64,000 nucleotides of DNA from Naegleria gruberi. Lineage: Eukaryota. Below the pieces are notes generated by a model that was not told the origin of the DNA, did no database searches, and saw only the letters and a list, made by a program, of their open reading frames with translations. This document shows positions 2,327 through 60,404 of this stretch, one piece after another. Each line of letters opens with the position of its first letter. Within the stretch, counting starts at the first letter, position 1. The translations under genes and the position numbers were made by a program. The stretch lies in assembly GCA_000004985.1 (NCBI GenBank), contig GG738855.1; one strand, written 5' to 3'.

Positions 2327-5300
2327 TTATTTCTTTTTTCGTTTGAAAAATTGGAAAGCAGATGAGGAACCACTATCTGAAGAGGAGCCTCCCTTCTCAA
2401 GGGATTGAGTAAGCATTTCAATAATGTCGTCACAAGGAACATGAGACGATTTGGCAATATCTAATGGTGTTTTACCTTGCTTATTTTTCAAGTGTAAAAC
2501 CTTGTACATTAATGTTTGTTTTGGTTCTACTCTTGGACTCGATAGATTTGTAGTTGAAGCACTTCTACTATTTTCTCTTGGTGTTGAAAGGAGACCTCCT
2601 GAAGTTGGAGTGGTATTTTGATTTGGTGATAAATTTGCAACAGAGCTAGCTGCAACACTAGGTCTCTTGTTCATTTGAACACCAACAATATTATACAGTG
2701 ATAGGAGATATCTTACAGCAAATGTATTGCTGTCGCTACAAGCATATGCAAGACAAGTTTGATGTTTGTCATTATCTGGTTCCATCAACAACTCATTGAG
2801 GACTTCAATATTTTCTTGAGACTCTTCGTCATATTTTTGTTTTTCTGCAAGCTTTTGTTCTGGTGTGAGCTCTACATTCTTTGGTGCTAATCTGAGGGCC
2901 GATCCTAATGTACTCTTTCTAGGTTGAAGTAGCTCATTAATAATCAATTGCATGGATTTCAAATCACCCTTAATTACACAATCGTGTAGAATATTTCTTC
3001 CATGATAATTTTGACTCTTCAAAACTTTAATGAATTGCTCTCTAGAAATGTATGGCAAAATTGCCTCCAAAATTGGTTGTTTTCGTTTCAGTACACTGTT
3101 GTTGTTACTTTCTGTTGATGAATTGTTGGTTTGAGAATTATTCTTGCTTAGTTCAGGATTGAGTTTCTTAGCTCTCTCTGAAGGATCATTGTAAAACAAG
3201 TCACGAGCCTCTTGTTCACTCAAGCCATAGAATTTTTTAGCTGAGAGAATGAGTGTCTTGGTTGACCATCCCATTTGAGGAACAAGCAACTCCATGGCTT
3301 TGAACATAATATTCTTCTTCAATTGGAATTCATCTTGAAGGAAGTGACTAATGTGATTAGGGAATCTAGAACCATTTGTATTGGTTTTGGAATTGGCTGG
3401 AGAGGGTGATGAATTATTTTGAATTGGGCTTGATTTAATCTTGATAGAATCTTCAAGAAGGACACCTTGTTGATTACTGGTATAACCTCCTCCTGCCATT
3501 CCATTAATACCTGAAAGAGCAGCCAATGAGTCTGATCTCATTTTGAGTGCAGCAGGAAGCTTGAGAGGTTCTCTCTTCTTTCTTCTATCGTTTGTTAAGA
3601 GTTTGTTCTTATTTTCATAATTGACTTCACCAGATTCACCAACAAACATTTCATCCAATTCTTGGAAAATATCAGCAGAAACGTCAGTATCACAACTAGA
3701 AACACTAGTTGTTGGTGATGGAGCTCTATTCGAAATTGGAGTATTATCACTATGTTCTGATGATTGTTTAACTGAGTCAACTCTAGGTGAGTCATATTTA
3801 GTTGATTCATTGATGGTATCCTCATCTTTTTCCTTGGACATTTCATGTTCGAGAAGGAATTCTTCAATCAAAAGTAAATCTTCATCTGGTACTTGAGATG
3901 ATTCTCTCTTTGATTCTACCGATTTTTCATCAGCAGCATTAATTACATCCTTTGTTGAGTTTTGTGAGGAGAGAGTTCTTGGTGAAGGTTGAGTTGGCAC
4001 TTGTTGTACCTCAACTTCTCTCCCAACAAGATTGAAGAGTGGAACACATCCTTTTTGATCCTTCTTTAGTAAAATAGCTCCCTTCTGAATGAGATAAACT
4101 ATTCTATCCAATGGTAATTCGAAACAAGCACGGTGCAACATGGTTTCACCTCCACGAATTGTAGTATCCAATGAAGCACCAAACAAAATGAGCATGTCAC
4201 ACACTGCAAAGCAACCTCTCTTCAATGCTACATAAAATACATTGTATCCAAATTCATCATCCACTTGTTGAATAATCTTTTCCAATGCATTGTTATTATA
4301 TGGAGATGAAGCTCCAGTAGCAGGAGATGAACTAGTTGGTGAAGGAACATCTGCCTTATTCTTATTACCGAAAAAGCTCTTTCTTCCAGAGCCTCCTCCA
4401 CTATTAGAATGTGGATTGGCCACAAGTTCTGATCCATTTCTAGCTCTTGAAACTCCTGTCTTGATTGTTGAACTCTTAATTTTCGTACACAAGAATGCAC
4501 AGCTCTCAGTAGCATTAAAGAAGGAAGTATAAAAGAGTGGAGTCATTTTCATGGCATCCGAAACAAATAAGAAATCAGGTCCACATTCATCAAATAACCA
4601 TTCCATAATAACACTCTGATTGTACTTGGATGCCAAGTGCATTAGTGTACACTTTTGAATAGAATTAAACTTGGTATTGAGTAAATATTTAGTCCACAAT
4701 AATTTCAAAGATGGTTCCGTTGCAAATTTAAATTGTTTCCAAGTGTCGAGAACGTCCTCTTTCATGGAGGTAAATTCCTTCCTTGACATGACTTCAACTT
4801 CACGTGTAGGTGATCCAGTACTACTTGATGGACTGCCAAGAGATTGGAGGTCTGCGAATCTAGTACTGTTCCTGTTTAGTTTTATACTATTTCTATTAAC
4901 ACTGAGACTGTTACTGACAGTAAGAGTTGATGATTCGTTACCACTCAATTTCATAGATCCAGTTGTAAAGAAGAAGAATCTAAAGTAGAGTAATTGTTTC
5001 AATCGGTAGAGAGAATGAATAGAAATGTGATAGAGACCACTCAAGTCCATTAAAGCACTTCCCTTTGAAGATAATACCGAAGTTGTGGTATCTAAAATTA
5101 TTGATTTGGCACTAGTTTCCGCAACTGTATCTTTTTCAATCAATGGCTCAACTTGGCTGGTTTCGTTTGCTTTCGAATGCTTTCTGTTAACTTTCTTCTT
5201 CTTGGCAGATAAATGTTGTGATGATGGAACAAAGCAATTCAACACCAACTCCTTCCAAGTATCTTCATCCAACGAAGAAGCATCTAAATTATCAAAGAAT

Positions 5301-45151: not shown

Positions 45152-46090
45152 TTACTTCTTTCTGAAAGGTGGAGAGATTCTATTGGAGGGTCTCTTACTT
45201 CTTCTGCCCCTTACTGGTGTGATGATAACTTCCTCTGATTCGAGTGTGGAAGAAATAGAAGCAACCTTAATGACATCATCCCCATCGGAAGAAGTAGTCT
45301 TTTTGCTTGATATTGGGACGGATTCTGATGGTAAAACATCATTGTTTGCCGAGTCTGTTTCTTGTGACATTTCATCAGAAGGAGACAATTCTTCTTCAGC
45401 TGGTAATGAATTGCTTGTATTTTGGAATGATTCTGATGGTAAAACATCATTTGTTTCTTGAGAGATTTCTTCAAAAACCTCATCATCAAAATTGGCAGCA
45501 TCTTTATCACATCCTAAAACACGAGAGGATAGATATTTAGGATCAATAGGATACTTGCATTGAGTGAATGGAGTTTCTGTAGATAGAAATCCACCAGTTG
45601 CTTGCCATTCAACAACAATTTTGTTACCTTGTGTTAAAGAAAGTACTTTAGCCTTTCTCTTTCTGATCTCTCCGTCATTAATCTTAATTGCCTTTGCATA
45701 TGGAGGCTTGTCAACCATTACCAGTTGATTGATTTTGAAGGTAGATTCTACATTTGCTTTGTGTTTGTTGACTCTTTCGGCTTGCTTTTTAAATCTTTTT
45801 TGGACCGTTTCAACAATTAAAGCAGTGTCAATAATGATTGAGCACTTCTCACGTTCATCACAAAAATCAGATATTCTACTTGGTGCCACCTTATCAAACA
45901 AGTCTTGAGGAGTGAACTTTGTAACACTATGTACCGTGTTATTATGTTTTAAGACAACTTCCTTCAAATGGTCAACCCAAGTTCCAGCGTCGTTTTCATC
46001 AACAATGGATCGAATTTTGACCTCTATGCCATCTTTGGTAGTTCTGTTGCACCTTTCAGCCAATCCGTTTTCTGAGGGACTGTAAGGGTT
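45152..46090 (-). pseudogene. 5'-truncated integrase-domain C-terminal fragment of an LTR retrotransposon
   Basis: The reading frame …SPSENGLAERCNRTTKDG… is the integrase catalytic-core signature GxxER.NRTL. It is followed by a Ser/Glu-rich tail with an internal duplication (NDVLPSES…). No RT lies upstream. The fragment starts at a perfect hairpin at 46069-46116. Confidence 0.55.
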
Positions 46091-46673
46091 GGTAGCTGAA
46101 TCCTTACAGTCCCTCAGAAAATCCTTACAATAATTTGCTCAACTGGCTGAATTGGTGAAACAAAGGGAGTTTGTACTTGTTGACTAATGCTGTTTGGAGT
46201 TTCACTATTTGGAGTACTGTTGGAAATTACAATTCTGTGAGGTTGATTTTGAGTAGCAATATAATTTTGGAATCTACTGAGGAAACTTGGGTCACTGGCT
46301 AGTTGATTAATAAGAGAAACAATCAGTCCTTGGTCCATATTGAATATTTTTTAAGATTTTAACATATTTTACAACAACAGTTAAATTTTTCAATTTATAG
46401 TGGTCAAGGATTATAACTAAGGATTCTTGATTAATTGCAACCGTTCCAATAAAAGTACTTTTTATTTGTTATAGGCGAAAAAAATCTGCATAATGATTCA
46501 TGCAATCCTTAGTTATAAATGAAACCTTGTATCTATTCCTTATTGATGTGGTTACAACTCGTAATGGTTCCCTTGGTTGGACTGATAAACAAGGAATGCA
46601 GAAAAAGAAAACATACACCAAACATTAACTGTCAGGGAAGTTGTCATAGACACATCAAAACAAATCAAAAAAA

Positions 46674-47627: not shown

Positions 47628-48176
47628 CAATTTTAAAATTATTGATTGTCATATATAAAAGTTTGGTACCTATAACCTCGGATACCTCTTACTCCAATCT
47701 CTTATTGATTTAAGATTTTGAAATTGTTTATTATTGAATTTTTATAAAGAGTATTGACACGAATCAGAAGCTTCTTATTGTGACAACACTTGATAGAAGA
47801 ATGGGAAAGTGGCTGCATTAATTCAACATATTGAAAGTGAACAAGGTTCTCAAGATTTGGAACTCTTCTTCATGAAGAGGAGGTTATTGGGTGGTGACTA
47901 GAGAGAAACATTTCCTTGTAGCTTTTCTACTAGTAAATGATTAATTGACCAAGATGTTGACCTGTAATATGGAAACACAATAAAATTCAATAATACTGAT
48001 AAATACAGTAGTGAATATGAATGGTAATCATAAATCACTGAAAAAATCATGATTGGATCCTTTTTGAGACTTTTGGAAGTCAACTTGNNNNNNNNNNNNN
48101 NNNNNNNNNNNNNNNNNNNNNNNNNNNNNNNNNNNNNTAGTGTCATCACAGACTAAACCTTTAGATAATAATCAAA

Positions 48177-49064
48177 GTGGTTCTGGAAATGACCNCAGTT
48201 TCATCACAAACTAAACCCTTGGATAACAACCAAGGTGGTTCTGAAAAGAACCTAGATGCTATTCTTCACGCCATCACTTCATTGGGTGAGAGAATTAAAC
48301 ATCTTGAAGCAGTTCCACCCATCCTTCAAGAAGCTGATCAACTTGATGACAACTCTGATGAGGATTCTGCTGAAGATTCCACTGGTAAACATTGGGGTAT
48401 GTCAACAATCAAGGAGATTAGAAGACACTACGAAGTTGGCGACAGATTAGCCGATGGAGATGTCTTAAGTTTTGTTTCAGCCAAAACTCTTCGTCGTTAT
48501 CAAACCAATGATGCTCTTTTGAATAGAGTTCAATCATTAATGGCTAGATTTGAATCCGTTATTCATAATCATCGTACTCATCCCCGTTTGCAAGAAATCC
48601 AATCAAAGGGCTTGCAAAAGATGATGGAAATGTTGCATTTGAAATCTAGACTACTCCATTTCGCTTTAAGTCACCCAATGAACGTTGCTAACATCATTGA
48701 AATCACAGAATTAGTTTATCTTCTCTGTGAGGTCGAGAAAATCTTCTTGGAAGAAGGTTTGTTTGATAGTAATTTTGAGGTTGCCACCAATTTCATTCAA
48801 CCATTCGTACAGAGCAATACGTTCGCTGACATAACCGAAAAAGCACGTAGTAAGAAGAGAGAGAAAGCTGTTATCAAGACTGCTTTTGTTGGAAAGATTC
48901 AAAAACCCAACAAAATGAAAGAGAAGTTGAACAAACCCTACACTTCTCAACACAACAGCTACTCTAAGTCTTACAAGAGTAACTCCAATTTTCAAAAATC
49001 AGGAGACTCAAAACCAAAGTACAACAACAACAACGGTGGAGGATCCTTCAGCAAGGACCTCTGA
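48177..49064 (+). CDS. DIRS-like ORF1 (Gag-like)
   Basis: 295-aa ORF immediately upstream of the RT ORF and overlapping it. It is preceded by two ~55-bp tandem repeats at 48140-48250. Confidence 0.6.
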   Translation: MVLEMTXVSSQTKPLDNNQGGSEKNLDAILHAITSLGERIKHLEAVPPILQEADQLDDNSDEDSAEDSTGKHWGMSTIKEIRRHYEVGDRLADGDVLSFVSAKTLRRYQTNDALLNRVQSLMARFESVIHNHRTHPRLQEIQSKGLQKMMEMLHLKSRLLHFALSHPMNVANIIEITELVYLLCEVEKIFLEEGLFDSNFEVATNFIQPFVQSNTFADITEKARSKKREKAVIKTAFVGKIQKPNKMKEKLNKPYTSQHNSYSKSYKSNSNFQKSGDSKPKYNNNNGGGSFSKDL

Positions 49065-50916
49065 CTTGGTGGGTTGTCGTCTTGGCAAGTTTGTAACTCA
49101 GTGGGAGAGTTACAACTTCAACCCATTCATAGTGGATTGGATTCGGAATGGAGTTCCAATCTACTCAAATCCCACCCTTTGGAAAGAATTCAAGCAAAGG
49201 AAGAATTTCTCTCCAAAGGAGACCTCTTGGATGGATCAAGAAATCCAAGAGATGTTGAGTTCCAATGTCATCGAACTTGGAAACAAATCTACGGTACTCA
49301 ATCCAATAAACATTGTCCCCAAGAAGGGCTCAGATCAGTTTCGTTTTATTCTGGATCTCAGGAAAGTAAACTTGGGGATCAAGGATACTTCGTTCAAGAT
49401 GGACAACATTCAAAAATGTTTGAAGTTTGTTCAGAAAGGAATGTGGGCAACAAAGATAGACCTGAAGAAAGGCTATTTTCATGTTCCCATCAGAGAGAGT
49501 CATCGACACCTTCTGGGATTCAAGTACAAGAGCCTTGTATACCAATTCAAATGCCTTCCATTTGGTCTAAGTCAAGCTCCCAGAAACTTCACCAAGATAA
49601 TGAAGGAACTAATGACCAAGTGGAGAAAGCAGGGCATCTTGGTATTCATTTACATCGACGATATATTGATTCTAAGCAACCACAAGGAAACTACCCAACA
49701 ACACACAGAGATAATCTTGAAAGACCTAGAAACATTAGGATGGATTATACAGAAGGAGAAAAGTGTGTTGACACCTTGTCAATGCATAGAATTTCTGGGT
49801 CTGGAATTGGATTTAATATCAGGTTTGGTAAAAATTCCACTCAACAAACAAGCCACTGCGATAAAACTGATCCAAGACTTCTTGTCAGCGAACCAACTGA
49901 ACAGATATGTAGCTTGCAAGAAAGTGGCTCAGTTTCTTGGGAAGATGGAATTTCTAACCCTATCAAACCATTATTTTGCACCATTTCTGGCTCGTCTTCG
50001 AAAGGATATGGTGAAAGTAGTAAACGACAAATCCTGGCACGCATCGATGAGAATATTCAGAGGTGCAACCAAAGACCTCAAGATATTGAAAACTCTGATT
50101 CAGGAAAACAGTGGAGTTCCATTCGAACTGAACTCAATGAACCCGATTCGAGTGAATTCAGATGCTTGCCCAACAGGTTATGGAATCGCAGAATCAACCA
50201 TTACAATTGGAAGATTCAATTCCTCAGAGCACATCAATGTCAAAGAGTTAAAAACACTCCTCATTTTCTTCACACAAGCAGATCAATTAAACCTTTATGG
50301 TCCTGGTCAAGCATTCGAGATAAGAGGCGACAATGTAACAGCAATATCTTATATAAGGAGAGGTTACGGAGTCATCGAAGAACTCTCACAAATAGCCAGA
50401 GATCTCTACAAAATTCTAATGAGAAGAAAATGGTGGATTTCCAAAGTGATTTATATTCCCTCAAAGGAAAACATTTTGGCGGACAGACTGAGTCGTCTAA
50501 CAGAATGGAAATCCTCTCAAGAACTATTGAATCTAGTTCAGACAGAATTTGGAAAACACCACGTGGACAGATTCTCAACATTGGAATCAACCACAACAAT
50601 TCAATTCAATTCATGGATAGAGAACGACACATTTCTGAACCCATGGGAACAAAATCTGATGAGCTATTGTGCTCCTCCTCTGGGTCTGATATCTCAAGCT
50701 CTAGTTCACTGCATCAAGTCAGGAGCCAAAGCGACATTTGTGGTTCCAGATTGGCCCTCTTCGATATGGTTTCCAGTCTTGCTAAAGATATCAGAAAGAA
50801 TGATAACTGTTTCGAGAAAGATGCTTATAATAACGCCCTTATCAGAGTTGCAAGACAAGTTCGAGAATTCGAATTTCCTGGTTGTTCAAGTGCATGGCAA
50901 GTTATTCAAACAATGA
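49036..50916 (+). CDS. DIRS-like reverse transcriptase / RNase H ORF
   Basis: RT motifs are present (…KIDLKKGYFHVPI…, LPFGLSQAPRNF, VFIYIDDILILS). An RNase H-like region lies downstream. Confidence 0.8.
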   Translation: MEDPSARTSDLVGCRLGKFVTQWESYNFNPFIVDWIRNGVPIYSNPTLWKEFKQRKNFSPKETSWMDQEIQEMLSSNVIELGNKSTVLNPINIVPKKGSDQFRFILDLRKVNLGIKDTSFKMDNIQKCLKFVQKGMWATKIDLKKGYFHVPIRESHRHLLGFKYKSLVYQFKCLPFGLSQAPRNFTKIMKELMTKWRKQGILVFIYIDDILILSNHKETTQQHTEIILKDLETLGWIIQKEKSVLTPCQCIEFLGLELDLISGLVKIPLNKQATAIKLIQDFLSANQLNRYVACKKVAQFLGKMEFLTLSNHYFAPFLARLRKDMVKVVNDKSWHASMRIFRGATKDLKILKTLIQENSGVPFELNSMNPIRVNSDACPTGYGIAESTITIGRFNSSEHINVKELKTLLIFFTQADQLNLYGPGQAFEIRGDNVTAISYIRRGYGVIEELSQIARDLYKILMRRKWWISKVIYIPSKENILADRLSRLTEWKSSQELLNLVQTEFGKHHVDRFSTLESTTTIQFNSWIENDTFLNPWEQNLMSYCAPPLGLISQALVHCIKSGAKATFVVPDWPSSIWFPVLLKISERMITVSRKMLIITPLSELQDKFENSNFLVVQVHGKLFKQ

Positions 50917-51821
50917 GAGAAATCAGTATTCTCTCTTCAATAGGTGAAAAAACCTTCAGAACCTACAACAGGATTTATGGTGGTTTTCTTTGGTTTATCA
51001 ATGTGTTCGATCTTACCATTGATAATCCTTTAGCTATTGAATATTACATCTCTTACCTTCTGGTTAATGTTCAAGGTTACAAAGCAAATACTGTGCAAGC
51101 AGCTATTCAATTCTTTGCTAACCTTGATGGCAGAACAATTAATATTTCCGTCTCTTACCCTAAAGTTAAAAAAGGTGTCCTTAAGCTTTATTCACTTTCG
51201 GATAAAGTTTCTCTTCAAAGAGATCCGATAACAATCAAACATTTGACTGATTATTTGAAGTGCAAAGACAAAGTGGATAATTTCACTTTCCGTCTTACAT
51301 CTGCTATTCTAGTAATTGGTTTTAGACTATTTGCAAGACCTGGTGAGGTTGCGCGACTAAAATGGTCATATATCAAGATGCTTAAAAAAGGAAGAATCAA
51401 GATTGATCTCAGTGGTCATAAAACTGACTTCTTCCTTATTGAAAAACCAATTACTATCGAAAGGAATACTAAAGATCCTAATCTTTGCCCAATTTCAATA
51501 CTAAAATCATACATGGATTTGGTTAGGAATTTCAAAGATGCTGAGTCCCCATTATTTTCCTTCGAAAACGACAAATTCTTTGATTCAGATGGTATTTCAA
51601 AAATACTAAAGAATGCAGTGGGTATAGTAGATCAAGGCGTAACAGTCTCAGGTCACAGCCTTAGAATAGGTGCTATCACAGAAGGACTCAGAAAGGGTAT
51701 GTCTACAACTGATCTAATGGTCGGTGCAAGACATAAAAAGGAAAAAAATTTATTTCCTTACCTTAGATCTGAAGGCCTAGCTGGCAAGAATTTCACTAAC
51801 ACTCTATTTTCTCTGGACTAA
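49074..51821 (+). CDS. DIRS-like overlapping ORF encoding a C-terminal tyrosine recombinase
   Basis: It stays open for 915 codons in a frame different from the RT ORF. The YR motifs lie in the last ~170 aa. Confidence 0.7.
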   Translation: MSSWQVCNSVGELQLQPIHSGLDSEWSSNLLKSHPLERIQAKEEFLSKGDLLDGSRNPRDVEFQCHRTWKQIYGTQSNKHCPQEGLRSVSFYSGSQESKLGDQGYFVQDGQHSKMFEVCSERNVGNKDRPEERLFSCSHQRESSTPSGIQVQEPCIPIQMPSIWSKSSSQKLHQDNEGTNDQVEKAGHLGIHLHRRYIDSKQPQGNYPTTHRDNLERPRNIRMDYTEGEKCVDTLSMHRISGSGIGFNIRFGKNSTQQTSHCDKTDPRLLVSEPTEQICSLQESGSVSWEDGISNPIKPLFCTISGSSSKGYGESSKRQILARIDENIQRCNQRPQDIENSDSGKQWSSIRTELNEPDSSEFRCLPNRLWNRRINHYNWKIQFLRAHQCQRVKNTPHFLHTSRSIKPLWSWSSIRDKRRQCNSNILYKERLRSHRRTLTNSQRSLQNSNEKKMVDFQSDLYSLKGKHFGGQTESSNRMEILSRTIESSSDRIWKTPRGQILNIGINHNNSIQFMDRERHISEPMGTKSDELLCSSSGSDISSSSSLHQVRSQSDICGSRLALFDMVSSLAKDIRKNDNCFEKDAYNNALIRVARQVREFEFPGCSSAWQVIQTMREISILSSIGEKTFRTYNRIYGGFLWFINVFDLTIDNPLAIEYYISYLLVNVQGYKANTVQAAIQFFANLDGRTINISVSYPKVKKGVLKLYSLSDKVSLQRDPITIKHLTDYLKCKDKVDNFTFRLTSAILVIGFRLFARPGEVARLKWSYIKMLKKGRIKIDLSGHKTDFFLIEKPITIERNTKDPNLCPISILKSYMDLVRNFKDAESPLFSFENDKFFDSDGISKILKNAVGIVDQGVTVSGHSLRIGAITEGLRKGMSTTDLMVGARHKKEKNLFPYLRSEGLAGKNFTNTLFSLD

Positions 51822-52559
51822 CCCATTGGTTTATCAACGAAATTCTTTATTGTTTTATTTGGAGAAATATGGCTAGTTGCGAGGAACGATGCAACGTTAG
51901 TATTTCGACAAATTGTAAACAATAAAATTGAGTTGATAAATAATTTTTATGCTCAAAAAAATTAAGAAACATGGTAAACACACCAAGCAAAATCATTGCT
52001 GACCCACCCACCCATTCCCTTAATTTCATCAAGAATTCCTTGAATTCTTTCAAATAGTCCTTCACTCCTTGAGTGTTTTTTCCTATTTGTCTTTTAGTTT
52101 GATCTTGGTAAGTGATCCTTCTAAGGATGCAGGATTAGTATTACCTTGTGATACAATAATTTTTATTTCTAACTAACATCATTTGAATAATTCGAAATAT
52201 GCTCGTAAAGTTAGCCAGATTTATTTTTTCAAAAAATATTTCTGATAGAAATTACCAGGCATTTTTTTACAAGCAATTCACTAGTTAAAATAGAGAACTT
52301 TAATGGATTGGAGTTTTTACTGATTTTTTCCTGCAATGCAGGTTTTTTATAGGGGAGTTGTTCTATTTCAATCTCGATTTTGTAAACAACTTTATTAACT
52401 CGGGACAATGCTGAATAAAGTCAATGACCTAAAAGGCAGCATTTCCGAGCAACATACCTCATCCTTTGGATGAAGAATATGTTGAGTGAGCTTCTACCCA
52501 TTGGTTTATCAACGAAATTCTTTATTGTTTTATTTGGAGAAATAATAAAAATCTATATG

Positions 52560-53700
52560 AATTTTCTGAAACAAATGGAATGAAAAATAAATAAAAGGTG
52601 TAAGTTTATTAATGTCTCTTGTATCAATAACGACCTGAGAGACCACACTTTTTCGGCATTTAAGGACTCTGTGCAACATTTGAATGATTTGGGTTAAGAT
52701 TGAGTGCCGTTGAGTGAGTGTGCCTAAAGTAGGCTGATTGGAATTTTGAGTTTTTGATAAAAGGTTGTCGGGAGGGACGGTTGTACCACATAGTGTTTTT
52801 GTAACAATTTTCTAAATAAATGGCGAATGCCTTGTAAATTTCTAGAGCTACAGCCTTAGGAAGTCTTTTGTTCTTTGACCATAAGAGCCTATCGCTGCGA
52901 GAGCAGCTTCCGTTAAAATCAATAATAAGGCAGTTCCTCACTTTGTCTGAAGGGAGACGAATCGGATCGAGGTTAAATTTGGAGGAAATATTGTCCCAAG
53001 TAGCATACAGTTCCTGTTTTTCATGGTTGCTTTTAGAGCACGATGAGAAAACGTGTGTCCAGTCTTCGGCAGTTTGACATGAATCACAGGTTGTATTGTT
53101 ATCTAGAATAATAGCGTGGTGAAGGTTTAGGAAAAGGAGTCTTTGTTGATAGTAGGAGAGATGGAAATTTCTCCAAAAGGAAACAGTTGAAAGGTGCCAA
53201 TTAAGATTTGAATCTAACTGGCCCAACTCTGAGATGGTTTTTTTGGATCTTTTGAGTTCAAGAATATCGTTTCGTAAGTTGGTGATGGGTTTGTGTGACG
53301 ATCTGTCACAAAGAACCCATCCACTCTCTGTTGGATTGAAGTATGCATTGAGTTTGTTGATATTTAAGGCTGCATTTGTCCAGAGAGAGTCTGTAGATTT
53401 GCCTCGGAGAGCTTTTTGAATCGAGGCCCTTGCAATGTTGCGGGTGATTGTGGATGAGGAGTTCACAAATCTACAGACCGATGCTGTGCATTCAATGTCT
53501 AACACATCTACAGGAGACGTGAGACCGAGACCACCATGTCGCTTATCACCATAGATGACAGCTTTGGAAAGTTTGAAATTACACCCTAATTTCTTCTTAA
53601 TAGAACCACTAATATTTGATTCAAGTTTGGTTAACGTGGATAGGGGGACGGCATCAACACTTGATAAGTATCTAGGGATAGAGAGTACTTGGTTTGGGTT
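52560..53700 (-). mobile_element. 5'-truncated non-LTR (LINE/TRE-type) retrotransposon ORF2 3' fragment
   Basis: The minus-strand frame …KLSKAVIYGDKRHGGLGLTSPVDVL… is the GGLGL motif found C-terminal to LINE RTs. A CCHC finger follows (CDSCQTAEDWTHVFSSC). The 3' UTR has an AATAAA near 52560. Confidence 0.5.
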
Positions 53701-60020: not shown

Positions 60021-60404
60021 AGGGTTTGGGTTTGGGTTGGGTTGGGTTTGGGGTTGGGGTTGTGTTGGGGGGTTGGGGGTTTGGGTTTGGGTTTGGGTTT
60101 GGGTTTGGGTTTGGGTTTGGGTTTGGGTTTGGGTTTGGGTTTGGGTTTGGGTTTGGGTTTGGGTTTGGGTTTGGGTTTGGGTTTGGGTTTGGGTTTGGGT
60201 TTGGGTTTGGGTTTGGGTTTGGGTTTGGGTTTGGGTTTGGGTTTGGGTTTGGGTTTGGGTTTGGGTTTGGGTTTGGGTTTGGGTTTGGGTTTGGGTTGGG
60301 TTGGGTTTGGGTTTGGGTTTGGGTTTGGGTTTGGGTTTGGGTTTGGGTTTGGGTTTGGGTTTGGGTTTGGGTTTGGGTTTGGGTTTGGGTTTGGGTTTGG
60401 GTTT
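60021..60404. repeat. (GGGTTT)n telomere-like array, about 60 units; degenerate at the left and perfect toward the N-gap
   Basis: The sequence reads agggtttgggtttgggttgggttgggtttggggttgggg… and then becomes perfect gggttt hexamers up to the gap at 60405. Confidence 0.85.

What the first reader, a model, noticed from the sequence alone, without database searches (positions are those of the whole stretch)
48138..52545. Near-complete DIRS-type retrotransposon with a fully nested tyrosine-recombinase ORF
The gag-like ORF1 overlaps the RT/RNase H ORF. A 915-codon ORF in a second frame is open across the entire RT ORF and ends in an unmistakable YR catalytic domain. This is the hallmark DIRS arrangement. 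An overlapping ORF this long is very unlikely by chance. A 48-bp direct repeat lies at 51822 and 52497, and there are two ~55-bp tandem repeats at the 5' side. The left terminus falls in an N-gap.
Basis: partly seen in the sequence, partly recalled or inferred. Interest (0 to 1): 0.5.

Follow-up and report, generated by a model that had tools for sequence, protein, structure and literature searches.

The report
Intact DIRS-type retrotransposon in Naegleria gruberi
This is a young, coding-intact tyrosine-recombinase (DIRS-order) retrotransposon in the amoeboflagellate Naegleria gruberi; its very long stop-free second reading frame over the reverse-transcriptase gene is real and kept by selection, but that layout is already a known DIRS trait.

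Summary
The window is Naegleria gruberi: the recombinase ORF is 100% identical to an NCBI N. gruberi protein. It carries gag-like ORF1, a pol ORF (RT, RNase H, Dam-like MT) and a tyrosine recombinase (YR) with all catalytic residues. The YR frame is open across the whole pol ORF. Synonymous shuffles predict 29-43 stops there, and only the gag stop is seen (0/2000). The same holds in five of six relatives with RT identity as low as 52%, and in two distant DIRS elements. The overlapped peptide itself is not conserved, so only stops are avoided. The literature already describes long pol/YR overlaps in DIRS1-like elements and DIRS-like fragments in N. gruberi.

Points not described before:
- The gag stop is always UGA-C, sits exactly on a conserved pol Asp codon, and is in frame with the YR frame. 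This suggests +1 frameshifting and/or readthrough at one site.
- The pol stop and YR start overlap as AUGA.
- The termini look like split direct repeats (B1-A2-B2), not DIRS1 inverted repeats plus an internal complementary region. The left end is lost in the gap.

Verdict: a new member of a known kind, of modest interest.

The parts
48088..48137 (.). Assembly gap of 50 N. The left terminus and A1 repeat are presumed lost here.
   Evidence: The sequence to the left of the gap has no similarity to A2.
48139..48252 (+). Two 56-nt copies, 82% identical, with a 58-nt period. The copies are out of frame with each other, and an N lies at 48195. This may be an artefact of the gap edge, drawn from a paralogous copy, or a real 5' duplication.
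   Evidence: TRF did not report it. A paralogue with 84% YR identity exists in N. gruberi.
48177..49064 (+). Gag-like ORF1. The first ATG is at 48189. The N-terminus is uncertain. There is no zinc knuckle and no Pfam match.
   Evidence: It aligns with the ORF1 of relatives at 16-47% identity. 'Gag' is assigned by position only.
49062..49065 (+). Gag stop in UGA-C context. It overlaps the first conserved pol-frame codon (U-GAC, Asp) and is in frame with the YR frame. Proposed recoding site.
   Evidence: TGA-C at the same position in all six family members. The pol-frame sequence upstream of it is not conserved.
49036..50916 (+). Pol ORF, with its frame open from 48931. RT about 49315-49809; RNase H about 50161-50484; Dam-like MT about 50503-50823. 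There is no pol-frame ATG before 49231.
49065..50912 (+). 'X': the stop-free stretch of the gag/YR frame that overlaps pol in the -1 frame. It is Ser/Arg-rich, and its sequence is not conserved beyond what pol imposes.
50913..50916 (+). AUGA: the YR start codon overlaps the pol stop codon.
   Evidence: Present in five of six family members.
50913..51821 (+). Tyrosine recombinase, 302 aa, identical to an annotated N. gruberi 'predicted protein'.
51821..51869 (+). B1 repeat, starting at the last base of the YR stop codon. It begins with the conserved motif CCATTRGTTT.
51830..51940 (+). Imperfect hairpin across the B1/A2 junction (40-nt arms, 70% complementary).
   Evidence: I2. DNA fold z = -4.5. 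Equivalent hairpins occur in L004 (z = -4.7), L005 (z = -6.1) and L008.
51870..52495 (+). A2: a 626-nt non-coding segment between the B copies. It is inferred to be a copy of the element's missing 5' end.
   Evidence: By analogy with L005, where A1 (61-306) equals A2 (4079-4324) at 97%.
52496..52544 (+). B2 repeat, the inferred right end of the element.
   Evidence: 49/49 identical to B1.

Best explanation
A young, probably still functional, tyrosine-recombinase retrotransposon of the DIRS order in Naegleria gruberi. It belongs to a Naegleria-type family whose other members were recovered from environmental assemblies.

Shown:
- Gag-like ORF1, pol (RT, RNase H, degenerate MT) and YR are all intact.
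- The gag/YR frame carries a single stop, the gag UGA, from gag to the end of YR.
- Stop codons, and only stop codons, are purged from that frame across pol.
- The gag stop is UGA-C, placed exactly on the first conserved pol codon.
- The pol stop and the YR start overlap as AUGA.
- The 3' end is B1-A2-B2, with a conserved hairpin at the B1/A2 junction.

Inferred mechanism:
1. One genomic RNA is translated from the gag start.
2. Most ribosomes stop at UGA-C and produce Gag.
3. A fraction shift +1 at that stop (NNN-U-GAC) and produce Gag-Pol.
4. The YR is reached by ribosomes that stay in the gag frame, most simply by UGA readthrough. They translate the unconstrained Ser/Arg-rich spacer X into the YR domain. 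This would explain why X must be stop-free while its sequence is free to drift.
5. Termination-reinitiation at AUGA may be a second route to YR.
6. After reverse transcription, the internal B-A junction copy supplies the circle-junction information to rebuild the termini, and the YR inserts the element.
For: Identity and domains:
- YR ORF 100% identical to an N. gruberi protein.
- Domains.

Stop avoidance in the YR frame:
- Seven family sequences were compared: the window plus six environmental loci, L001-L006.
- Six of the seven have no stop in the YR frame over pol other than the gag stop. L002 is cut before gag and shows none.
- The seventh, L005, an aged copy whose A1 and A2 differ by 3%, has two extra stops.
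- 29-43 stops are expected from shuffles, and 0/2000 shuffles reach the observed value.
- Two distant DIRS elements behave the same way: L007 and L008 have 0 stops where 17 and 35 are expected.
- A third distant element, L009, has 57 where 59 are expected, so the test can also come out negative.

The avoidance is specific to stops:
- The +1 frame has 56-73 stops.
- T|AY, T|GY and T|GG codons do occur in X, which contains Tyr, Cys and Trp.

X is not conserved as a protein:
- X identity equals the constrained-shuffle null for seven of the twelve more distant pairs (z 0.2-2.4) and is 2.5-4.1 in the other five.
- Third-base matching is only slightly raised: 0.507 against 0.435 expected in pol, compared with 0.496 against 0.478 in YR.

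Recoding site:
- UGA-C occurs at the same codon in 6/6 members.
- The window has no pol-frame ATG before the conserved motifs.
- The database search returned no N. gruberi protein matching this intact 626-codon pol ORF; the best hit was 57% identical.

Other features:
- AUGA overlap in 5/6 members.
- Repeats.

Literature:
- The long pol/YR overlap is typical of DIRS1-like elements.
Against: - No expression data exist. Readthrough, +1 frameshifting and reinitiation are all inferred from sequence alone.
- That gag and X share a frame follows geometrically from a +1 gag-pol shift combined with X = pol -1, so it is not independent evidence for readthrough.
- In L007 and L008 gag is not in the X frame, so entry into X must work differently there.
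- The conserved AUGA offers a route to YR that needs no open X frame.
- No consistent RNA structure follows the UGA (z from +0.2 to -3.0).
- A1 is not visible in the window. No single copy shows all four of A1, B1, A2 and B2.
Confidence: 0.7

Rival explanations
1. The YR is made only as the 302-aa protein, by termination-reinitiation at the AUGA pol-stop/YR-start overlap or from a separate transcript. The open X frame serves some other purpose, for example a separate fast-evolving accessory product.
For: - AUGA is conserved in 5/6 family members, and YR conservation starts exactly at that Met.
- L009-type DIRS elements express YR without any long overlap.
- Gene callers annotate the short protein.
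Against: - It gives no reason for the complete and specific purge of stops over about 620 codons in lineages as diverged as 52% RT identity, or in L007 and L008, which lack AUGA.
- X shows no protein-level conservation, which argues against an accessory protein.
Confidence: 0.25
2. The long open second frame is a by-product of composition or codon bias and has no function.
For: The gag tail is low-complexity and hydrophilic, which by itself keeps the neighbouring frames open for short distances.
Against: - 0/2000 codon-usage-preserving shuffles come near the observed value.
- The other alternative frame has 56-73 stops.
- Only one of 170-198 stop-prone codon junctions ends in T, against a 21-24% T3 frequency.
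- The pattern recurs in independently diverged lineages and is absent in L009 at similar GC content.
Confidence: 0.01
3. The element is a DIRS1-like element in the strict sense, with inverted terminal repeats and an internal complementary region. B1 would be the left ICR and B2 the tip of the right ITR. The left ITR would be hidden in the gap.
For: [quoted passage not shown]
- B1 lies directly after the YR stop, where L007 has its ICR.
- B is 70% complementary to a segment 31 nt downstream.
- The MT domain and the long overlap are DIRS1-like traits.
Against: - No segment after B1 is a good reverse complement of the right end. The best is 70% over 44 nt, against 98-100% in the positive control L007.
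- In L005, where the left end is visible, the internal copy of the 5' end is direct (97% over 246 nt), and there is no long ITR.
Confidence: 0.12
4. B1-A2-B2 is not the element's terminus. It is a secondary rearrangement, such as a partial tandem duplication or a fragment of a second, nested copy.
For: - A1 was not observed.
- DIRS elements are reported to cluster and may insert into one another.
- In L005 the repeated A segment runs into gag coding sequence, which would also fit a head-to-tail tandem.
Against: - B2 is not preceded by YR coding sequence, and the repeat boundaries are sharp.
- The B-hairpin-A arrangement after the YR stop recurs in L004, L005 and L008.
- The left flank of L005 (1-60) is not the sequence that precedes A2, so L005 is not a simple tandem.
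Confidence: 0.12

Closest known systems
DIRS1-like retrotransposons (DIRS-1 of Dictyostelium discoideum; L007 here is a textbook example)
   Same: - Gag-like ORF1, pol with RT, RNase H and a degenerate adenine-MT domain, and a YR instead of an integrase.
- The YR ORF lies in the -1 frame of pol and overlaps it over its whole length.
- The catalytic YR domain lies in the non-overlapping 3' part.
   Different: - No ITR/ICR complementarity could be shown. The repeats are direct (B1 = B2 in the window, A1 = A2 in L005).
- Gag lies in the YR frame and pol at +1, whereas in L007 and L008 pol is at -1 and the YR frame at +1 relative to gag.
- The YR motif is HSLR, not HSTR.
[quoted passage not shown]
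   Same: Split direct repeats in the order A1...B1-A2-B2, together with an MT-bearing pol.
   Different: - Phylogenetic placement was not tested.
- All ORFs here are on one strand.
- B and the start of A also form an imperfect inverted repeat, so the termini look intermediate between the two types.
Ngaro and VIPER/TATE, YR retrotransposons with split direct repeats (VIPER occurs in kinetoplastids, which are also Discoba)
   Same: YR plus RT/RNase H, and termini of the A1...B1-A2-B2 type.
   Different: These groups lack the MT domain and usually have no ORF overlap. This element has both.
Stop-codon-dependent recoding in other systems: antizyme and Ty3 +1 frameshifting, and UGA-C/UGA-CUA type readthrough. 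This comparison rests on my own knowledge.
   Same: - A UGA followed by C at the gag/pol boundary, with the pol frame starting at the +1 codon.
- The next base is U in 4/6 members and G in 1/6.
   Different: - The resemblance is purely sequence-based.
- No conserved downstream stimulatory structure was found.
- There is no experimental support.

Membership tests
DIRS order (YR retrotransposons) | Reverse transcriptase of the Ty3/gypsy-related type | tested here: met
   Pfam RVT_1 4.2e-26. Ty3 RT 4ol8 at 1.3e-20, or 2.5e-27 with the family profile. YIDD motif present.
DIRS order (YR retrotransposons) | RNase H domain following the RT | tested here: met
   The family profile aligns to the RT/RNase H polyprotein 8r0s through profile position 498, E = 1e-24. 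D376, E404, D432 and D483 are invariant. There is only a weak direct hit to archaeal RNase HI, E = 0.15, and no Pfam RNase H match.
DIRS order (YR retrotransposons) | Tyrosine recombinase with the catalytic residues R-K-H-x-x-R-H/W-Y, in place of a DDE integrase | tested here: met
   The profile hits Cre at 8.8e-11 and XerA at 3.6e-10. R142, K170, H248, R251, H/W and Y283 are conserved. PF00589 is on record for relatives. The window protein alone does not reach Pfam significance.
DIRS order (YR retrotransposons) | Gag-like ORF1 upstream of pol | tested here: inconclusive
   An ORF of the right size and position is conserved among relatives at 16-47% identity. It has no Pfam match. Its fold was not tested.
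DIRS1-like superfamily | Methyltransferase-like domain at the C-terminus of pol | tested here: met
   Pfam Dam at 6.7e-5 and 23.1 bits, below the 28.1-bit cut-off, over aa 490-596. PF05869 is on record for more distant DIRS relatives and, faintly, for L001's pol product. The domain is reported as catalytically inactive in all DIRS1 elements (PMC4738411).
DIRS1-like superfamily | Long overlap of the YR ORF with pol | tested here: met
   The overlap covers 1,852 nt and is kept by selection. It is described for half of 28 DIRS1-like elements.
DIRS1-like superfamily | Inverted terminal repeats | tested here: inconclusive
   The left end of the window copy is missing. In L005, where the left end is visible, only a 25-nt arm at 80% is found. 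The positive control L007 shows a 225-nt ITR at 98%.
DIRS1-like superfamily | Internal complementary region that is the reverse complement of both termini | tested here: not met
   The right end (B2) is only 70% complementary to the post-B1 segment and is 100% identical, in direct orientation, to B1. In L005 the internal copy of the 5' end is also direct. The L007 control shows ICRs at 98-100%.
PAT-like superfamily | Split direct repeats A1...B1-A2-B2 | tested here: inconclusive
   B1 = B2 (49/49) with A2 between them in the window. A1 = A2 (97% over 246 nt) with B1 between them in L005. No single copy shows all four parts.
PAT-like superfamily | RT/RNase H groups with PAT, kangaroo and TOC in a phylogeny | not testable with these tools
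   No reference sequences for PAT, DIRS-1 or Ngaro were available. Database hits carry no family names.
Ngaro / VIPER | No MT domain and no long ORF overlap | tested here: not met
   An MT-like domain and a full-length overlap are both present. The criterion is taken from PMC3266345.

The most novel reading that the evidence does not exclude
In this Naegleria family a single UGA-C codon at the end of gag is a three-way decision point. Termination gives Gag. A +1 shift onto the overlapping GAC gives Gag-Pol. Readthrough gives Gag-X-YR. X would be a translated spacer whose only constraint is to contain no stop codon. More generally, the long pol/YR overlap of DIRS elements would be a 'translate-through' device. 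It would let eukaryotic ribosomes reach a 3'-proximal recombinase gene on a single mRNA.
Probability: 0.25. Interest if true: 0.6.

Novelty: new member of a known kind. Interest (0 to 1): 0.35.

Why it matters
- Piednoel et al. 2011 found seven DIRS-like sequences in N. gruberi. [quoted passage not shown]
- This copy has all three ORFs intact and perfectly identical B repeats. It could therefore anchor a heterolobosean lineage in the phylogeny of YR retrotransposons and help date their origin.
- The analysis also turns a long-noted curiosity, the long pol/YR overlap, into a quantified statement that can be tested: stops are purged but the overlapped peptide is not conserved. It also points to a specific candidate recoding site (UGA-C).
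- None of this changes what kind of element it is.

Tried and rejected
- Look-ups of the N. gruberi paralogues P0001, P0002 and P0004 by exact protein found nothing on record. Genomic copy number and other complete copies could therefore not be examined.
- There is no second copy of any part of the element in the 64-kb window.
None belongs to the family and none carries a YR on the same strand, so it added nothing.
- Pfam finds nothing for gag, for X or for the neighbouring ORFs.
- A2 does not encode a gag N-terminus, unlike the repeated segment of L005.
- I looked for a conserved RNA structure just after the gag UGA. The folds are inconsistent, with z from +0.2 to -3.0. A recurring hairpin about 70 nt downstream coincides with the conserved pol peptide DWI...PI and is too far away to count as a stimulator.
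- The pol frame is open 134-293 nt upstream of the gag stop. I do not count this as evidence for anything, because the hydrophilic low-complexity gag tail rarely generates +1-frame stops.
- The shared frame of gag and YR is not counted as independent evidence for readthrough, because it follows from the frame geometry.
- Structure prediction of gag or X was not run. Only window sequences and database hits may be submitted, so no adequate alignment could be supplied.
Full report
**What is there**

The window is Naegleria gruberi. The 302-codon ORF at 50913-51821 is 100% identical to an NCBI 'predicted protein [Naegleria gruberi]' on a 613-kb contig. Paralogues at 84% and 51% identity exist in the same species, and a 47% relative in N. 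fowleri.

- a gag-like ORF at 48177-49064;
- a pol ORF at 49036-50916;
- a 915-codon ORF in another frame at 49074-51821.

The 50-N gap at 48088-48137 and a lone N at 48195 are confirmed. The two repeats are also present. One is a 49-nt perfect direct repeat at 51821 and 52496. The other is a 56-nt pair, 82% identical, at 48139 and 48197. The 58-nt spacing of that pair puts the copies out of frame. It sits at the edge of the gap, and a paralogue at 84% YR identity exists in the species. It may therefore be a gap-edge artefact, but I could not decide this.

The surrounding window carries ordinary host genes, including phospholipase B, penicillin amidase and an RCC1/EGF protein. It holds no second copy of the element.

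**Domains**

- Pol contains an RT. Pfam RVT_1 scores 4e-26. The best solved relative is Ty3 RT, at 1e-20 with the single sequence and 2.5e-27 with the family profile.
- An RNase H region follows. The family profile aligns to the RT/RNase H polyprotein 8r0s through profile position 498. D376, E404, D432 and D483 are invariant.
- A weak Dam-like methyltransferase match comes next: 6.7e-5, below Pfam's cut-off. Pfam has PF05869 on record for more distant DIRS relatives and, faintly, for the pol product of L001. This domain is described as an inactive MT typical of DIRS1-type elements (PMC4738411).
- The recombinase family profile hits Cre (9e-11) and XerA (4e-10). The catalytic residues R142, K170, H248-x-x-R251, H/W and Y283 are conserved.
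- ORF1 has no recognisable domain. It is called 'gag' by position only.

**The overlapping frame**

I recovered six relatives from environmental assemblies, L001-L006. Their RT identity to the window is 52-72%, their YR identity 31-65% and their gag identity 16-47%.

In the window and in five of these relatives (L001-L004 and L006), the YR frame has no stop across the whole pol ORF other than the gag stop (L002 is cut before gag and shows none). L005 has two further stops.

Shuffling synonymous codons within each pol ORF predicts 29-43 stops in that frame. None of 2000 shuffles came close to the observed value. The other alternative frame has 56-73 stops. Of the 170-198 pol codons followed by AA, AG or GA, only the one forming the gag stop ends in T, although 21-24% of all pol codons do. 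The avoidance is therefore specific to stop codons in one frame.

L005, the exception, is an aged copy. Its A1 and A2 repeats differ by 3%.

Two distant DIRS elements, at about 30% RT identity, show the same purge. L007 has 0 stops where 17 are expected, and L008 has 0 where 35 are expected. A third, L009, shows no purge, with 57 against 59 expected. This matches the published statement that about half of DIRS1-like elements have a long overlap (PMC3266345). In every case the YR frame is the pol frame minus one.

**The overlapped peptide is not conserved**

- At identical pol residues, third-base matching is only slightly above expectation. It is 0.507 against 0.435 in pol, compared with 0.496 against 0.478 in YR and 0.492 against 0.457 in gag.
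- The null model shuffles third positions while keeping pol, its codon classes and the no-stop rule. For seven of the twelve more distant pairs, the identity of the overlapped peptide 'X' equals this null (z = 0.2-2.4). In the other five it is modestly above it (z = 2.5-4.1).
- X is Ser/Arg-rich.

Selection therefore removes stops but shows little sign of caring about the sequence. The simplest reading is that ribosomes must pass through X to reach the YR domain.

**Junctions**

- In all six family members the gag stop is TGA followed by C. It sits exactly on the first conserved pol-frame codon (U-GAC, Asp). The pol-frame sequence upstream of it is unconserved.
- The window has no pol-frame ATG until 169 nt past the gag stop, which is after the conserved GGRL and DWIRNG motifs.
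- Consistently, the database search returned no N. gruberi protein matching this intact 626-codon pol ORF. The best hit was 57% identical.
- I infer a +1 frameshift at the stop codon that produces Gag-Pol.
- Because X is pol minus one, gag and X are in the same frame. Readthrough of the same UGA-C would give Gag-X-YR. This co-framing is a geometric consequence, not independent evidence.
- In L007 and L008 the geometry differs: pol is at -1 and X at +1 relative to gag, and X opens 150-320 nt before the gag stop.
- The pol stop and YR start overlap as AUGA in five of six family members. Termination-reinitiation is therefore a live alternative route to YR.
- No consistent RNA structure follows the UGA.

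**Termini**

- B1 starts at the last base of the YR stop codon (51821-51869) and begins with a motif conserved in L004 and L005, CCATTRGTTT.
- A 626-nt non-coding segment, A2, follows at 51870-52495.
- A perfect second copy, B2, follows at 52496-52544.
- In L005 the left end is visible. A1 (61-306) recurs as A2 (4079-4324, 97% identical) 32 nt after the YR stop, and the left flank is unrelated.

Together these give the A1...B1-A2-B2 pattern of split direct repeats described for PAT-like, Ngaro and VIPER elements (PMC6681497).

The DIRS1 criterion is an internal region that is the reverse complement of both termini. It is not met here. B2 is only 70% complementary to the post-B1 segment. The control L007 shows a 225-nt ITR at 98% and ICRs at 98-100%.

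B and the first 70 nt or so of A do form a conserved imperfect hairpin. DNA folding gives z = -4.5, -4.7 and -6.1 in three elements, and L008 has an equivalent. The termini therefore look intermediate between the two published types.

A1 of the window copy is not to the left of the gap. It is presumably inside the gap.

**Comparison with what is known**

The element works like, and is a member of, the DIRS order. Within the order it combines DIRS1/PAT-type coding features (MT domain, long -1 overlap) with PAT/Ngaro-type direct repeats. Ngaro and VIPER are excluded by the MT domain and the overlap. Choosing between DIRS1-like and PAT-like needs a phylogeny with reference sequences, which I did not have.

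Piednoel et al. 2011 already reported seven DIRS-like sequences in six families in N. gruberi. They called their status uncertain because of frameshifts. DIRS-1 itself is described as having three overlapping ORFs.

**Verdict**

The element is a new, intact member of a known kind.

Three points are worth keeping:
- the quantified, stop-specific selection on the overlapped frame;
- the conserved UGA-C and AUGA junctions;
- the split-direct-repeat termini.

The expression mechanism remains an inference.

Noticed in passing
window 60022-60404, running into the N block up to about 63200: A (GGGTTT)x64 tandem array, 96% matches, lies directly against a roughly 3-kb run of N inside the scaffold. It resembles a telomere repeat and may mark a scaffold join or an interstitial telomeric array.
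   Followed up: partly
window 45152-46063 (- strand): A 303-aa ORF whose N-terminal part reads like the end of a retroviral-type integrase core (…HNNTVHSVTKFTPQDLF…). It has no Pfam match even at E = 5. It may be a fragment of a different retroelement next to the DIRS copy.
   Followed up: partly
window 52660-53505 (- strand): A 281-aa ORF immediately to the right of B2, with a Cys/His cluster (CDSCQTAEDWTHVFSSC). It has no Pfam match. It may be the tail of another transposable element, which would make 45-54 kb a small cluster of transposable elements among host genes.
   Followed up: partly
window 46068-46121: A near-perfect 23-nt inverted repeat, 96% complementary, with an 8-nt loop, just past the 5' end of the 45152-46063 minus-strand ORF (I3).
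   Followed up: no
window about 49130-49165, and the equivalent positions in L001, L003, L004 and L005: A hairpin (GAUUGGA...UCCAAUC) recurs about 70 nt downstream of the gag stop, in shifted registers. It coincides with the conserved pol peptide DWI...PI. It may be a coding coincidence or an RNA element.
   Followed up: no
L007, whole locus (TARA ocean metagenome contig, 4840 bp): An apparently complete textbook DIRS1-like element. It has a 225-nt ITR at 98%, both ICRs at 98-100%, and a 1109-codon YR-frame ORF that encloses pol. It is useful as a reference or control.
   Followed up: yes
L005 and L006 (the same sequencing run, ERR1078381): The YR of L005 is nearly identical to the N. gruberi protein P0004. 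This environmental sample therefore probably contains a Naegleria-like organism that carries at least two DIRS families.
   Followed up: partly
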